From Spizellomyces punctatus DAOM BR117 (taxonomy: Eukaryota), in the NCBI GenBank assembly GCA_000182565.2, contig KQ257454.1: a stretch of 64,000 bases of DNA, one strand, 5' to 3'. The position numbers and the translations under genes are program-made. The notes below the pieces were generated by a model. The model was given only the letters and a program-made list of their open reading frames with translations, ran no database searches and was not told where the DNA came from. Position 1 is the first letter of the stretch, and each line of letters starts with the position of its first letter. This document shows, one piece after another, positions 4,890-9,651 of the stretch.

Positions 4890-6007
4890 TCAATACCCGA
4901 CGACGCATCTCGCCGCCTTGGCCAGATCTCTCCATACACATATCTGGCTGAACCCACTATTCTGCATAATTTGTGTCACGCGACTAGCTTGTTCGGACCC
5001 GATCTCCGTTACTAGTCTAGGTATAGGAACTCGACTGTCAGTCTCCGATGCAGGTTTCAAAAGCCACCTTTGCGCGACGAACGCTATTCGTTCATGAAAG
5101 GCTGTTCCATTATTATCTGCAATTAGTGCACAATGATCTTCCCACTCTTTCACATCTTCGTCCAACTCCAAAAATTCCTGTTTCGATACATAAGGCGGAT
5201 TGCTGACGATCATGTCGAACCGGCGACTGACATGGCCACCCAGATGTTGTACAACCCCATCGTCCCACACATCAACCCACTGCACATCCAGCAGGGAAGG
5301 AGAAATGTCTAATCTGCGTGCGTTCACGCGAGTAAGACGAAGTGCTGAAGCGGAGATATCGGCAGCCGTAACGTGCACGTCCCCAATACCCGAAAGGTGA
5401 TGCGCTAATGAGATTGCTATGCATCCAGTTCCTGTACATAGATCCAGAATACGGAATGGTTCCTTTTCATGGGATGATCGGGTGGCAATGTGAGGTTTGA
5501 GTGCATCTATCAACTTCATTGTCCATTCCTCAGTCTCCCATCTAAGAATAGACCCAAGAGAGACCGATGAGCTCCATACACAAATTACACAATTTCTCTT
5601 AACTAGTATCGCCTTCCTTCTCACCTCGATTCTTACCTTGGTATGAGCGTTGGTCTCCTCACTTTCAGTTCCAAGCCGCAGAAAGGCTGCGTACCCAACA
5701 GGTACTGGAGCGGTCTCTTTTTCTCTACTCTCTCGTATATCCACTGGTCAAGTCGGCGCTGTTCCTCCACTGTGCACAGCTCAGATAATGACCTTTCTAG
5801 GATGGTGGGGGCGAAAGTAGGAATAGGTGACGGTCGGGAAGGGCGTGGAAAGTAGTAGGCAGATCTTGACCTACGAGAGTGCAATTTTTCTACCATCCAC
5901 TTCAATTCACGAGCTGCAGCTTGGGAATCGTTGTCGCATGCTGGGAGAAGCCGAGTGACAAGGGAATTGTATAGCGCTCGACCAGGTTGGAGGCCGGACA
6001 CTGCCAT
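4890..6007 (-). CDS. HemK/PrmC-family N5-glutamine methyltransferase (release-factor methylase, probably mitochondrial MTQ1-like)
   Basis: PLQYLLGTQPF...RRPTLIPR|WETEEW, SAM motif ILDLCTGTGCIA, and SNPPY motif. One intron near 5540-5637. Confidence 0.9.
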
Positions 6008-6452
6008 GGTGTTCTTGCAGATCTGCCTATTAGTATCGTGCACGCGACATTTAAAAATGCGATCACAAAAAGATTGCTATCAATCTATGAAATACTGGCC
6101 AATGGAAAGCATGGTTTTATCCTCAAAAGAATGAAACAGGCATGGTCTACACGACGTTACCCATTCCCCCTCCGCAACCAGAGACATGAATGCCAGATTA
6201 TCTGTGCACGGTACTGAAGCCTGTCTCGATGTAGATACCTCTCCCAACAAGGTTTATCTCCAGCCCAGATACCCTCAATGTGATAGATAGGTCGTTTTAT
6301 TTATTGCCTGTCCACTGCTAGAGATTTCCGCTTGTGTTCGATCATTCCCAAAATGGACAGCGTTGCCGTGCGATATCTGGTTAATTTGCAAGTATTAGGC
6401 GGCTATGAGATATATTCATAACCGTGTTTGAGGCACGAGAACATTGGCGAGA

Positions 6453-7715
6453 ATGTTGCTCCACCCAATTCCGCTCAATGAAGCACTCGGCTGTATTGAC
6501 GGCAAGCAAGCCGTAATGATGTTTCAAGAGCCCTTGATACCTGGTATAATAAAAGCAAGGTTGGTTGCCAAGAGTTGTTAAGGAACCTTTCGCGAAATTG
6601 ACATGGATCTTCGGTATCAATATCAGACCCAACCGGTTCATTATGGAGGTGTCGTGCTGGCAACCTGCAGTCCTTTGAATTGCCTCATGCGTGGACCATT
6701 CAACATGTGCGTCACAGGTTGATATCCATGGTAGAGGAGTGTGCGATTGTCATTGCCCATGTCAGTTCGTGTTCATAGTCTATGTATGCTTGGAGTTGAA
6801 AACTGAAGCTGCAACATTCTAGGCACAGGCCGGATTGGTAACCTAAATTTCGGCAACACACCCTGCCTTGTGTCCAAGTCGAAACCTGGACAAAAGAGGA
6901 GAACCGAGTTCACTGTGGAAGCCATATCGACGCAGTCAATTTCGGAGCCCCTGTCAACCACAGAGTGGATCGGTATCAATCAATCACTATCGAACTCATA
7001 TGTGGAGTACTTTATGCGATTGGGAGCCTTTGACGAACTGGGTATTACGAAATCCTCAACGATTCGGAGAGAAGTGTCGGTTGGAGACAGTCGAATCGAT
7101 TTTGAGATCGATGAGACGACCTTTGTAGAGGTCAAGGTGAGCATTTTACTTTTGAATGTTGAAGCTCACCTCTGAGAACTGACCCGGTCCCAAGACGCCT
7201 TTAATTCATATACCAGGTACGGGGATAGGGGACTCAAAGCCATTGACAGCGTTTCATAGGTAAATTCGAAAAAAGTCTTGATGCGCAACATCTATAGGGT
7301 GAACTAACGCTTCTGTAATGCGACAGGATTGTTAAGGTCTGCCATTCCTTCGCATAAACATGCATATTCCATTTCTGATGCGTATTATTCAGCATTTTGA
7401 TGAATTAGCTAGCGCCGTCAAATCAGAATCCAGCACAGGTCACTTGAAGAGGGGCATATTTTTGTTCTGTTTTTTCTACGATGCGCCACCGTTTCAACGA
7501 CCTCCGGCTACGGTAAATATTGAGGCTATCACTCAGGCAGCGAAACGAGCGAAGGAAGCGGGGGTGCAGTTCTGGCAGGTAATTCCATATTCCTCGCAAA
7601 TGTAAACGTAGGCGACTAATCTGAATTGCCCTTACTGTTCTTTCAGGCTAATTTTAGGGTAACACCTGAGGGAATCCATTTTCTTAGAGTATTCCGACTG
7701 GAAAGCGACTATTAA
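6453..7715 (+). CDS. sfsA: SfsA-family (sugar fermentation stimulation) PD-(D/E)XK nuclease-like protein, 8 exons
   Basis: Exons 6453-6559, 6627-6648, 6718-6760, 6823-7136, 7195-7259, 7327-7336, 7393-7578, 7647-7715 join in frame via GT-AG introns. The product contains RPNRF, CHCPCTGRIG, IRREVSVGDSRIDF..FVEVK, RIVKHFDEL and AKEAGV, the SfsA motif order. Confidence 0.85.
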
Positions 7716-7858
7716 AGGGTAATGCTATGTAAACAGTCAATGGAGGGATATTCCATCAAACAATGAGCGCCACTGGACGTGGTGTCCCCGCGAGTTTCAT
7801 CGAAGATTGTGCAAGCGCATGAATAAATATCATTAAACCTCAATATCTACTGTACGAT

Positions 7859-9651
7859 CTACATTATTCTACATCTGCCTTGCGATGCATCCCGTTCGGC
7901 CTCATGTTCCACCCTTGTTAAAAGCCCTTGTGCTTCCTCAGCCAGCGGCCCGCCTCTTTTCACCGCTGCAACCAAATATGACCTAGCTAGGTTTAAATCT
8001 TTGTTAACCTTCCTGAAAAGATCTCCAGGTTGCCTCTTCAGTCCCTCTAGATACAATTTTCCCAAATTGACTTGCGAAATCTGAAGGCCCTGTTCTGCTG
8101 CCATTTTCCAATACTCGATGGCGTCCCAAATATCGCGTTTTATGTCGAACTCTTCGTTGCCTTGAAAATAAATGCTGGCAACATTGTGCTGCGCTATTGA
8201 CAACCCTGCATCACAACAATGAATAACAATTGATCTATGCATTGGAATCAAAAGGGACTTACCCTTGTTAGCCGCTTGCAGAAACAGCTCAAGCGCTTTC
8301 TTAGCATCGGGGCGTCCATCAGGTGATCCTTCTCCCGACGCATAGTGGGTCCCAAGCAGAAATGTAGCTTCGACCATCCCTGATGCGATGTAAGTTACTG
8401 GTACCTTGTGTAATCAGTCAGTTGAAGGTACCTTTCTCATGTGCGTGCTGCAGGTACTTCATCGCCTTGGGCACATTCTTAGGAACAACGGGGACGATAC
8501 CCTTCCCGTAAATAAAACCTACACTTGTTCATCTAACCCACCAAAAGGAGCGCTTTCAAAGTGGCATAGAGACCTAGCTGGCCATATGCTTGAGTAATTC
8601 CACTTGTAGCTGCGGATTCAAGCAACTTTATCCCTGAAGACACGTCAGATCCCGTAGAGATGTGACGTAGACCAAGGATGTACTGGGACAACCCGTGCTT
8701 TCGACTTGCTAAGGATCGCATGATTTGGAGAGCCTGCTTAACGTCCTTTTTGAATCCGGGAATATCTTGAACAGATCAGACACTTAATTAATGGTCTGGA
8801 CTGACTCGAGCATGCTACATATCAAATTACCTTTGGATAGAACTTGGGCATATTGATATTCTGCATCCATATCGCCGCACCGAGATGCGATTTCCAACAT
8901 CTTCCGTGCGAGGGGTAATCCATCTTAGATTCAATTAGTCTTCATCTGGCGTGGGAATGGAAGGGAAACACCGCCAGGCCAATTTTACAACTGATAGGTA
9001 CCTGGCGAATGTCGGGCTAACATAGTGCCCACCATCGTTAGATTTCGTACGTCCCTATTTGCAACTATATGACAACAACTGGATGGTTGAGCGCTGTATT
9101 CGATCTGCATTCCTCACCAACATAAAAATGCGTCCAAACCTACTCTCCATAAGCGTTCGCTCCAAGACAACAGTACTCCCAGCTGCATTATTTTTCCCAA
9201 AGTCTATGATTGCCGATACCAAGGCCACCTGTTGATGAGCAGGTATAGAGACCCGCTTGTCTTCATACAGCTTGTGCAAGATGGGCCACGGCGGTAGCAC
9301 CTCCTCAGGAACCAAGCTTTGCAAATCTGTCGGTGAAGTTCTTGTGCTGTGCGTCGGTACACCGGCATCCTTTACGGCACTCTCCAGAACTTCACCGTCT
9401 ATCGATATAGTGTCAAATACTCCCCCAACGGTTGGGGTACGAAGCCCGTTGCCCCTCATCGAAGGAATGGACGTGAAATGTCGCAGACCTGACCTGTTTG
9501 AATCGCGGGTCCATGAAGAGGATATAACAGGGACGGCACGCAACGCTGCTTGGTTCGAAGGAACCCCTTTTGTGTTGTTGGCCTTGCAAAAGACAGCCAC
9601 ATGCTGCTGCGCTCGTTGAGCCCGATATCTGGTGGATGAGTGGACGTTCAT
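7859..9651 (-). CDS. Sel1-like repeat protein, possible mitochondrial presequence
   Basis: Repeated SLR units, e.g. 'ATFLLGTHYASG..DAKKALELFLQAANKG', 'AQHNVASIYFQG...AIEYWKMAAEQG' and 'SQVNLGKLYLEG'. Arg/Ala/Ser-rich N-terminus. Confidence 0.85.

What the first reader, a model, noticed from the sequence alone, without database searches (positions are those of the whole stretch)
6453..7715. Prokaryote-type SfsA nuclease gene domesticated with seven spliceosomal introns
Seen: eight exons reconstruct a ~245-aa protein with SfsA N-terminal OB motifs (RPNRF, HCPCTGRIG) and an apparently intact PD-(D/E)XK core (RE..GDSRIDF...FVEVK, KH..EL). Known: SfsA is a mainly bacterial/archaeal DNA/RNA-binding nuclease-like family of unclear function. 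Inference: an old horizontal transfer, possibly from an endosymbiont, kept functional in a fungus. Its eukaryotic role (organellar DNA metabolism, repair or defence) is unknown.
Basis: partly seen in the sequence, partly recalled or inferred. Interest (0 to 1): 0.78.

Follow-up and report, generated by a model that had tools for sequence, protein, structure and literature searches.

The report
Intron-rich SfsA nuclease gene in chytrid
This is a real, expressed, intron-containing gene for an SfsA-type nuclease-like protein in a chytrid fungus, and it is an old gene shared with other early-diverging fungi and several protists, so it is not a private bacterial import.

Summary
On the + strand, 6453-7715, eight exons separated by seven GT-AG introns of 56-69 nt (one exon is 10 nt) give a 271-aa protein. 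It aligns end to end with SfsA proteins and keeps the E/D/E-x-K nuclease residues. The window matches Spizellomyces punctatus DAOM BR117, and the gene is already annotated there as SPPG_03519. The public 226-aa model has a wrong 5' end and lacks half of the OB domain. RNA data show a poly(A) end near 7843 and one spliced contig across intron 7. The closest relatives are orthologues in eight other named fungal species; with S. punctatus these span four phyla. They form one clade (100/96) whose inner groups follow fungal taxonomy. Related genes occur in Mastigamoeba, Plasmodiophora and a thraustochytrid. The nearest prokaryotes are archaea and Firmicutes, not organelle ancestors. A single eukaryotic origin is neither shown nor rejected. 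The function is inferred: a metal-dependent nuclease acting on DNA, probably not organellar.

The parts
6453..6559 (+). Exon 1. It holds the first in-frame ATG, a 21-aa extension ahead of the point where prokaryotic SfsA proteins start, and the start of the OB domain.
   Evidence: The extension has 1 K+R and 2 D+E. Missing from the public model P0199.
6560..6626 (+). Intron 1 (67 nt, GT..AG, phase 2)
   Evidence: Supported by homology only: it joins K-A-R to P-N-R-F in frame.
6627..6648 (+). Exon 2 (22 nt), carrying the RPNRF motif
6649..6717 (+). Intron 2 (69 nt, GT..AG, phase 0)
   Evidence: Supported by homology only.
6718..6760 (+). Exon 3 (43 nt), ending inside the CHCPC motif
   Evidence: The public model starts at an ATG here in another frame.
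6761..6822 (+). Intron 3 (62 nt, GT..AG, phase 1)
   Evidence: Supported by homology only: it restores HCPCTGRIG.
6823..7136 (+). Exon 4 (314 nt). It holds the end of the OB domain, FTVEAIS, WIGINQ, and the catalytic residues E141, D150, E160 and K162.
   Evidence: Pfam SfsA 27.0 bits on this exon alone. Invariant columns in 67 sequences.
7137..7194 (+). Intron 4 (58 nt, GT..AG, phase 0; CTGAC near its 3' end)
   Evidence: Agrees with public models P0199 and P0001.
7195..7259 (+). Exon 5 (65 nt)
7260..7326 (+). Intron 5 (67 nt, GT..AG, phase 2; CTAAC near its 3' end)
   Evidence: Agrees with the public models.
7327..7336 (+). Exon 6, a 10-nt micro-exon that completes R and encodes I-V-K ahead of HFDEL
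   Evidence: The residues are present in P0199 and P0001 and conserved as R-[LI]-V-K-H-F in the orthologues.
7337..7392 (+). Intron 6 (56 nt, GT..AG, phase 0)
   Evidence: Agrees with the public models.
7393..7578 (+). Exon 7 (186 nt), carrying the conserved K-H and YDAPPF and ending at FWQ
   Evidence: RNA read depth 12.9 in bin 7488-7541.
7579..7646 (+). Intron 7 (68 nt, GT..AG, phase 0)
   Evidence: Contig of run X1 joins 7412-7575 to 7644-7735, skipping 68 nt, GT..AG with the cut shifted by 3, 0 other letters. Depth in run X4 dips to 2.78 over it.
7647..7715 (+). Exon 8 coding part, ending in the fungal-type tail E-S-D-Y and TAA
7716..7843 (+). 3' untranslated region up to a poly(A) addition site
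   Evidence: Six reads of run X4 carry a loose run of A behind 7843. Plus-strand depth continues to that point.

Best explanation
This is the S. punctatus orthologue (SPPG_03519) of an SfsA gene inherited vertically in Fungi, at least since the common ancestor of Chytridiomycota, Monoblepharomycota, Zoopagomycota and Mucoromycota. It belongs to an SfsA subfamily marked by FTVEAIS and WIGINQ. That subfamily is otherwise found mainly in archaea (DPANN groups, Nitrososphaerota, Methanocellaceae, Thermoplasmatota) and in Bacillota and Actinomycetota. Its ultimate origin is prokaryote-like, but the acquisition is far older than this fungus. Shown here: the gene structure, the family membership, the SfsA fold, the conserved active-site residues, transcription with a poly(A) end, and the fungal clade. 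Inferred mechanism: the N-terminal OB fold holds nucleic acid, and the C-terminal PD-(D/E)XK domain (E141, D150, E160, K162) cleaves a phosphodiester bond with a divalent metal. The substrate is most likely DNA, in repair or processing. The site is probably the nucleus or cytosol, not an organelle, because the N-terminus does not look like a presequence.
For: Gene model and motifs. Identity with SPPG_03519 is 100% over 213 aa.

Family membership: Pfam SfsA 50.1 bits against a cut-off of 22.8. The full-length profile match is 338.6 bits.

Fold: the AlphaFold2 model of P0199 has pLDDT 90.3 and pTM 0.87. Its only 2 Foldseek PDB matches at E <= 0.001 are E. coli SfsA 4dap (1.5e-8) and P. furiosus SfsA with DNA 4dav_A (5e-7).

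Active site: the only four invariant columns in 67 aligned sequences are E96, D105, E115 and K117 of P0199. These are E141, D150, E160 and K162 of the 271-aa model.

Expression: plus-strand RNA reads, a poly(A) end at 7843 and one spliced contig over intron 7.

Fungal descent: 7 of the 10 best-scoring representatives looked up carry organism names, and all 7 are fungi. The fungal clade has support 100/96. Inside it, the chytrids group at 87/84, Endogonales at 89/89 and Zoopagales at 99/91. The same clade appears in the 225-row FastTree (98) and the 95-row quick tree (98). The orthologues share fungal-only traits: CHCPCTGRIGD and a tail ending D-[DQ]-Y or E-Y.

Composition: G+C of 6001-8000 is 0.454, against 0.454-0.498 across the window's bins, so it is not an outlier.

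DNA link: the title of 4dav; an Atlas cluster of 164 HhH-GPD+SfsA fusions; a WYL-type regulator beside sfsA in 8 of 80 prokaryotic loci; and E. coli SfsA binding DNA non-specifically, as quoted in passages of PMC1189080.
Against: No nuclease activity has been shown for any SfsA in the passages I read. PMC1189080 itself allows a non-DNA substrate.

Pfam SfsA_N stays under its cut-off on the pieces I could hand in: 20.2 and 21.5 bits against 25.

Introns 1-6 have no RNA junction. RNA depth over the 5' two thirds of the gene is below 1.

The window protein is more similar to prokaryotic sequences (42-46% identity) than to the protist ones (34-37%).

Gonapodya falls beside Zoopagales instead of the chytrids, though weakly (87/19). 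The bootstrap of that tree had not settled (correlation 0.977).

The fungal sample is thin. The two Mucoromycota species are both Endogonales. Presence or absence in Dikarya was not tested.

The localisation rests only on the residue make-up of 21 residues and on a recalled rule about presequences.
Confidence: 0.75

Rival explanations
1. The gene is an ancient eukaryotic gene, present by the last common ancestor of Fungi, Amoebozoa and SAR. It was either inherited from the archaeal side or acquired very early, and was then lost in most lineages.
For: Named eukaryotic holders span Fungi, Amoebozoa (Mastigamoeba), Rhizaria (Plasmodiophora) and Stramenopiles (Hondaea), plus one MMETSP transcript. 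In the best careful tree the 12 named eukaryotic rows already lie on one side of a single branch against the 25 named prokaryotic rows. The subfamily is rich in archaea.
Against: The branch separating eukaryotes has support of only 16/71.6. The tree backbone is a polytomy. The window protein is closer to prokaryotic than to protist sequences. No record among the 80 listed loci is titled as an Asgard archaeon. SfsA clearly entered eukaryote-type proteins more than once: a bromodomain fusion is nested among Bacillota.
Confidence: 0.25
2. The gene is a recent, lineage-specific horizontal transfer into Spizellomyces from a bacterium, an archaeon or an endosymbiont.
For: The family is mainly prokaryotic. 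Identity to Patescibacteria, Methanocella-like and Micrarchaeota proteins is 45-46% over about 250 aa. In the first tree, built without other fungi, Spizellomyces stood alone on a long stem of 1.21.
Against: Orthologues are present in eight other named fungal species. With Spizellomyces they form a clade with support 100/96. The gene has seven introns and host-like G+C. None of the 80 listed loci is alphaproteobacterial or cyanobacterial.
Confidence: 0.03
3. The gene spread among eukaryotes through giant viruses (Nucleocytoviricota), which carried it between hosts.
For: An Atlas cluster of 58 SfsA proteins is labelled Nucleocytoviricota. Two viral contigs of 222 kb and 325 kb encode SfsA. One passage in PMC11745019 reports SfsA genes in giant-virus bins.
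Against: Neither viral sequence joins the fungi. L082 sits with P0128 and P0196 (82), and L083 with P0333 and P0240 (99). Only 2 of 82 pattern matches in viral contigs encoded a relative.
Confidence: 0.05
4. The locus is an assembly contaminant or a decaying pseudogene.
For: None beyond the prokaryotic look of the family.
Against: The frame is open after splicing and the catalytic residues are intact. Identity to the Spizellomyces sp. 'palustris' protein is 96%. The cluster listing gives 1,543,596 bases as the longest contig for P0199. A Sel1-repeat gene lies next to it. Polyadenylated RNA reads are present.
Confidence: 0.01

Closest known systems
E. coli SfsA (sugar fermentation stimulation protein A; PDB 4dap)
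   Same: Both have an OB domain followed by a PD-(D/E)XK domain, the same E, D and E-V-K residues and K-H. 4dap is the top Foldseek match, E 1.5e-8, TM 0.61.
   Different: Identity is only 24%. E. coli lacks the FTVEAIS and WIGINQ signatures. It is an intronless bacterial gene lying beside dksA and thpR.
Pyrococcus furiosus SfsA (PDB 4da2 and 4dav, the latter with DNA)
   Same: Same fold: 4dav_A has E 5e-7 and TM 0.59. The sequence profile also matches.
   Different: The sequence relation is distant (35.3 bits to the profile). I read only the entry titles and saw no paper on its activity.
Archaeal and Bacillota SfsA of the FTVEAIS/WIGINQ subfamily (for example Methanocella, Micrarchaeota, Woesearchaeota, Patescibacteria, Clostridium)
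   Same: Identity is 37-46% over the whole length, with the same length class and motifs.
   Different: These have no introns, no 21-aa N-terminal extension and no fungal D-Y tail. In 11 of 80 loci the gene lies next to an ODP metallo-beta-lactamase-fold gene.
Nuclear SfsA genes of algae (Table 4 of PMC4827209; Cyanidioschyzon HGT candidate in PMC6629376)
   Same: These are SfsA-family genes in eukaryotic nuclear genomes, read there as endosymbiotic or horizontal transfers (passages seen).
   Different: I had no algal sequences, so I cannot say whether they belong to the same subfamily. Those papers treat SfsA as a cyanobacterial-type transcription factor. Fungi have no plastid history.
Orthologues in other early-diverging fungi (Gonapodya KXS12974.1, Endogone RUS16968.1, Syncephalis KAI8054032.1, Bifiguratus OZJ02533.1, Thamnocephalis RKP08291.1, Borealophlyctis KAJ3284107.1)
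   Same: Identity is 44-51%. They share the CHCPCTGRIGD motif, the FMYDAPPF-[KR]-RP-x-AT motif and the C-terminal D-Y, and form one clade.
   Different: Several carry long low-complexity, K/R-rich inserts and longer N-terminal extensions that S. punctatus lacks. All are annotated only as hypothetical proteins.

Membership tests
SfsA (Pfam PF03749 / COG1489) | C-terminal SfsA RE domain scoring above Pfam's gathering score | tested here: met
   P0199, the public protein of this gene, scores 50.1 bits against 22.8 over profile positions 2-138 of 138. Exon 4 alone scores 27.0 bits.
SfsA (Pfam PF03749 / COG1489) | N-terminal SfsA_N OB domain (PF17746) scoring above the gathering score | tested here: inconclusive
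The spliced product, which restores RPNRF and HCPCTGRIG, aligns from residue 22 to position 5 of a homologue profile, but it was not scored against Pfam. Relatives P0128 (51.6 bits) and P0147 (35.4 bits) pass.
SfsA (Pfam PF03749 / COG1489) | PD-(D/E)XK catalytic residues in the ID...EVK form described by Kosinski et al. 2005 (PMC1189080) | tested here: met
   E141, D150 (in R-I-D-F), E160 and K162 (in F-V-E-V-K) are present. They are the only invariant columns in 67 aligned sequences. The motif description is quoted from a passage seen.
SfsA (Pfam PF03749 / COG1489) | Fold like the solved SfsA structures | tested here: met
   The AlphaFold2 model has pLDDT 90.3. Of at least 500 Foldseek PDB matches at E <= 10, the only 2 at E <= 0.001 are 4dap and 4dav_A, both with probability 1.00. 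The model lacks the first OB strands because P0199 is truncated.
SfsA (Pfam PF03749 / COG1489) | Binds nucleic acid; nuclease activity | not testable with these tools
   No assay was possible. There are only indirect hints: the title of 4dav and the fusion partners.
Horizontally transferred gene specific to this fungus | Absent from related fungi, and nested with support inside a prokaryotic clade | tested here: not met
   Orthologues are present in eight other named fungal species, giving four phyla with S. punctatus. The fungal clade has support 100/96 and is not nested in any supported prokaryotic clade.

The most novel reading that the evidence does not exclude
SfsA of this subfamily was already present in the last common ancestor of Fungi, Amoebozoa and SAR, and is therefore a relic of the archaeal-type nucleic-acid toolkit of early eukaryotes. 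It survives as a nuclear DNA-processing nuclease in early-diverging fungi and a few protists, and was lost in Dikarya, animals and plants.
Probability: 0.2. Interest if true: 0.55.

Novelty: new member of a known kind. Interest (0 to 1): 0.35.

Why it matters
SfsA is a widespread two-domain protein with solved structures and no agreed function. A conserved, intron-bearing orthologue group in culturable early-diverging fungi gives a eukaryotic setting in which to test what the protein does. I recall that S. punctatus can be transformed; no call here checked this. The case also warns against reading a prokaryote-looking gene in one fungal genome as a private transfer: sampling the neighbouring phyla turned it into an old fungal gene. 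On the practical side, the public model SPPG_03519 needs a corrected 5' end, which restores the OB domain. Four literature searches listed no paper on fungal SfsA among the rows shown. I could not open supplementary tables of fungal gene-family surveys, which may list this family.

Tried and rejected
RNA runs: no RNA holder was listed. Raw-read run X4 and three contig runs were laid instead. X2 and X3 turned out to be unspliced DNA contigs.

Own genome: none is held, so paralogues could not be sought.

Pfam on single small exons gave nothing for 4 of 5 pieces.

First tree (108 rows): it lacked the other fungi and left Spizellomyces alone on a long stem. I do not rely on it.

Careful tree on 95 rows: not finished after three runs, so only its quick version was seen. 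I cut the set by hand to 55 rows to finish a careful search.

Rows dropped before the trees: L002, L010, L042, L061 and L078 (partial or doubtful starts); representatives under 190 aa; and P0001, which is partial and near-identical to the window, from the 95- and 55-row sets.

E. coli as outgroup gave a very long branch (9.09, 3.64), so no root is claimed.

Giant-virus route: the two viral sequences found do not join the fungi.

Gene neighbourhood: 80 prokaryotic loci were compared. Conservation was found only among Bacillota-type loci (an ODP gene in 11 of 80, a WYL regulator in 8 of 80), and in no more than 3 archaeal loci for any neighbour. This is weak guidance for the fungal protein.

Not possible with the data held: intron-position comparison among fungi, dN/dS against S. 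'palustris', and a search of Dikarya or Asgard genomes.

Full report
**1. What is in the sequence**

Reading 5900-8300 and its frames shows short open stretches on the + strand bounded by GT and AG. Joining 6453-6559, 6627-6648, 6718-6760, 6823-7136, 7195-7259, 7327-7336, 7393-7578 and 7647-7715 gives an 816-nt frame of 271 codons plus TAA. There are seven GT..AG introns of 56-69 nt, with phases 2,0,1,0,2,0,0. Exon 6 is only 10 nt long. Branch-point-like CTGAC, CTAAC and CTAAT sit near the 3' ends of introns 4, 5 and 7 (the intron ends are printed). The first ATG follows an in-frame stop (frame 6432-6581).

**2. Is it SfsA?**

Of five single pieces given to Pfam, only exon 4 matched. It scored SfsA 27.0 bits (cut-off 22.8) and SfsA_N 20.2 bits (below its cut-off of 25).

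The gene is already in the public record. P0199 is SPPG_03519 of Spizellomyces punctatus DAOM BR117 (XP_016609765.1, 226 aa). It is 100% identical to my model over 213 aa. Its first 13 residues come from an ATG inside exon 3 read in another frame, and exons 1-2 are missing. P0199 scores SfsA 50.1 bits over the whole profile.

The spliced product matches a profile of six homologues at 338.6 bits, from residue 22 to residue 270. An AlphaFold2 model of P0199 (pLDDT 90.3, pTM 0.87) has only two Foldseek PDB matches at E <= 0.001. These are E. coli SfsA 4dap and P. furiosus SfsA with DNA 4dav_A.

In a 67-sequence alignment the only invariant columns are E96, D105, E115 and K117 of P0199. These are E141, D150, E160 and K162 of the full model, which is the ID...EVK nuclease motif described for SfsA (passage of PMC1189080).

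**3. Expression**

No run on record as RNA held the stretch. I laid four runs.

- A raw-read RNA run of the same species label gave 121 reads. Nearly all were on the + strand over 7434-7865, with bin depths up to 18.3.
- Depth dips to 2.78 over intron 7.
- Six reads end in a run of A behind 7843.
- A 255-nt contig of another run (its RNA nature is a guess) joins 7412-7575 to 7644-7735 with no other letters, which removes intron 7.
- Two further runs hold unspliced DNA.

Introns 4-7 also agree with two public models. Introns 1-3 rest on the in-frame restoration of RPNRF and HCPCTGRIG.

**4. Relatives**

Word-based searches with exon 4 and with profiles returned mostly archaeal proteins (Woesearchaeota, Micrarchaeota, Altiarchaeota, Nanoarchaeota, Methanocella, Methanomethylophilaceae, Nitrososphaerales) and some Patescibacteria. 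They also returned three named eukaryotes: Spizellomyces sp. 'palustris', Plasmodiophora brassicae and Hondaea fermentalgiana.

A scan of one genome per prokaryotic species found 197 relatives. The 80 listed are archaea, Bacillota, Actinomycetota and a few others. None is titled as an alphaproteobacterium, a cyanobacterium or an Asgard archaeon.

An exhaustive HMMER search with P0199 found 283 representatives at E <= 0.001. I looked up names for 20 of them.

- Of the first ten, seven carry organism names, and all seven are fungi: Syncephalis plumigaleata, S. fuscata, Thamnocephalis sphaerospora, Endogone sp., Bifiguratus adelaidae, Gonapodya prolifera and Borealophlyctis nickersoniae.
- Of the second ten, one is Mastigamoeba balamuthi and one is an MMETSP transcript.

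By NCBI taxonomy these fungi, together with S. punctatus, fall in Chytridiomycota, Monoblepharomycota, Zoopagomycota and Mucoromycota. Both Mucoromycota species are Endogonales.

**5. Trees**

The fungal clade appears in every tree that includes the other fungi.

| Tree | Rows | Fungal clade | Support |
|---|---|---|---|
| FastTree | 225 | 11 rows | 98 |
| Quick IQ-TREE | 95 | 10 rows | 98 |
| Careful IQ-TREE (LG+C20+F+G4 by PMSF, 255 columns) | 55 | 10 rows | 100/96 |

In the careful tree, Spizellomyces + Borealophlyctis + P0205 group at 87/84, Endogone + Bifiguratus at 89/89, and the Zoopagales at 99/91. Gonapodya is only weakly placed (87/19). The bootstrap had not settled (correlation 0.977).

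The backbone is a polytomy of five groups:

- the fungi;
- a protist group with Plasmodiophora, Hondaea and the MMETSP row (83/90);
- a Mastigamoeba group;
- a mainly bacterial clade;
- a mainly archaeal clade.

In that tree the 12 named eukaryotic rows already lie on one side of a branch against the 25 named prokaryotic rows, with support 16/71.6. A single eukaryotic origin is therefore neither shown nor rejected. Pairwise, the window protein is 42-46% identical to prokaryotic members and 34-37% to the protist ones.

The fungal proteins share traits that the others lack: CHCPCTGRIGD, FMYDAPPF-[KR]-RP, and a tail ending in D-Y or E-Y.

**6. Other routes into eukaryotes**

- Two viral contigs of 222 and 325 kb encode SfsA but do not join the fungi.
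- A 409-aa protein with a bromodomain fused to SfsA is nested among Bacillota and is 62% identical to a Selenomonas ruminantium sequence. This shows a separate, later entry of SfsA into a eukaryote-type protein.
- Passages of two papers report nuclear SfsA genes in algae and a Cyanidioschyzon transfer candidate.

**7. How it probably works**

The shown facts are the two-domain fold, the intact metal-binding and catalytic residues, and transcription. The rest is inference.

The OB domain would hold nucleic acid and the PD-(D/E)XK site would cut it. Four hints point to DNA:

- a solved SfsA-DNA complex, known to me from the entry title only;
- an Atlas cluster of 164 proteins that fuse a HhH-GPD base-excision domain to SfsA;
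- WYL-type regulators beside sfsA in 8 of 80 prokaryotic loci, and an ODP metallo-beta-lactamase-fold gene in 11 of 80;
- the reported non-specific DNA binding of the E. coli protein (passage).

My reading that WYL regulators often control DNA-damage or defence genes is recalled, not tested here.

The 21-residue N-terminal extension has 1 basic and 2 acidic residues. By a recalled rule of thumb, this does not look like a mitochondrial presequence. Several orthologues carry K/R-rich inserts that could be nuclear signals. This is a guess.

**8. Verdict**

The interpretation needs correcting: this is an old fungal gene, possibly an old eukaryotic one, and not a transfer kept in one fungus or a gift from an endosymbiont. 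It is a new, unstudied eukaryotic branch of a known family and is already annotated as a hypothetical protein. Four literature searches listed no paper on fungal SfsA among the rows shown.

Noticed in passing
window 6453-6822 (+): The public gene model SPPG_03519 (P0199, 226 aa) begins at an ATG inside exon 3 read in a different frame (first 13 residues). It omits exons 1-2, so it loses RPNRF and half of the OB domain. The model of Spizellomyces sp. 'palustris' (P0001, 194 aa) is truncated even further.
   Followed up: yes
window 7327-7336 (+): This is a 10-nt micro-exon between two ordinary short introns. It is needed to keep the frame and the conserved R-I-V-K-H-F stretch.
   Followed up: partly
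window 7812-7900, and 7859-8413 (-): A Sel1-repeat gene (Pfam 57.2 bits) lies convergent to the SfsA gene. Minus-strand RNA depth rises (12.2, then 18.6) exactly where plus-strand depth ends near the poly(A) site at 7843. The two 3' ends therefore meet within a few tens of bases.
   Followed up: no
protein P0212 (409 aa, unnamed source): This is a Bromodomain + SfsA_N + SfsA fusion. Its SfsA part is nested among Bacillota sequences and is 62% identical to a Selenomonas ruminantium protein (L071). It looks like a separate, more recent capture of SfsA by a eukaryote-type chromatin-reader protein.
   Followed up: partly
protein P0220 (535 aa); Atlas clusters: There are other SfsA fusions: SfsA + radical SAM (P0220), HhH-GPD + SfsA (cluster of 164), SfsA + YjeF_N (cluster of 65), and a cluster of 58 SfsA proteins labelled Nucleocytoviricota.
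   Followed up: no
loci L017, L022, L042, L051, L054, L063, L067, L069, L070, L071 and L025: In Bacillota-type loci, sfsA is preceded on the same strand by an ODP-family metallo-beta-lactamase-fold gene (11 of 80 loci). In 8 of 80 loci it is accompanied by an HTH_11-WYL-WCX regulator, mostly divergent. Among archaeal loci no neighbour recurred in more than 3.
   Followed up: partly
L082 2001-2543 and L083 2001-2522 (viral contigs): Two virus-labelled contigs of 222 kb and 325 kb (locus G+C 0.377 and 0.28) each encode a full-length SfsA. One groups with unnamed proteins P0128 and P0196, the other with P0333 and P0240.
   Followed up: partly
L081 (E. coli K-12 160782-161486): E. coli sfsA lies between dksA and thpR (RNA 2',3'-cyclic phosphodiesterase), near pcnB. 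This is an RNA-metabolism neighbourhood that differs from the neighbourhood of the subfamily studied here.
   Followed up: no
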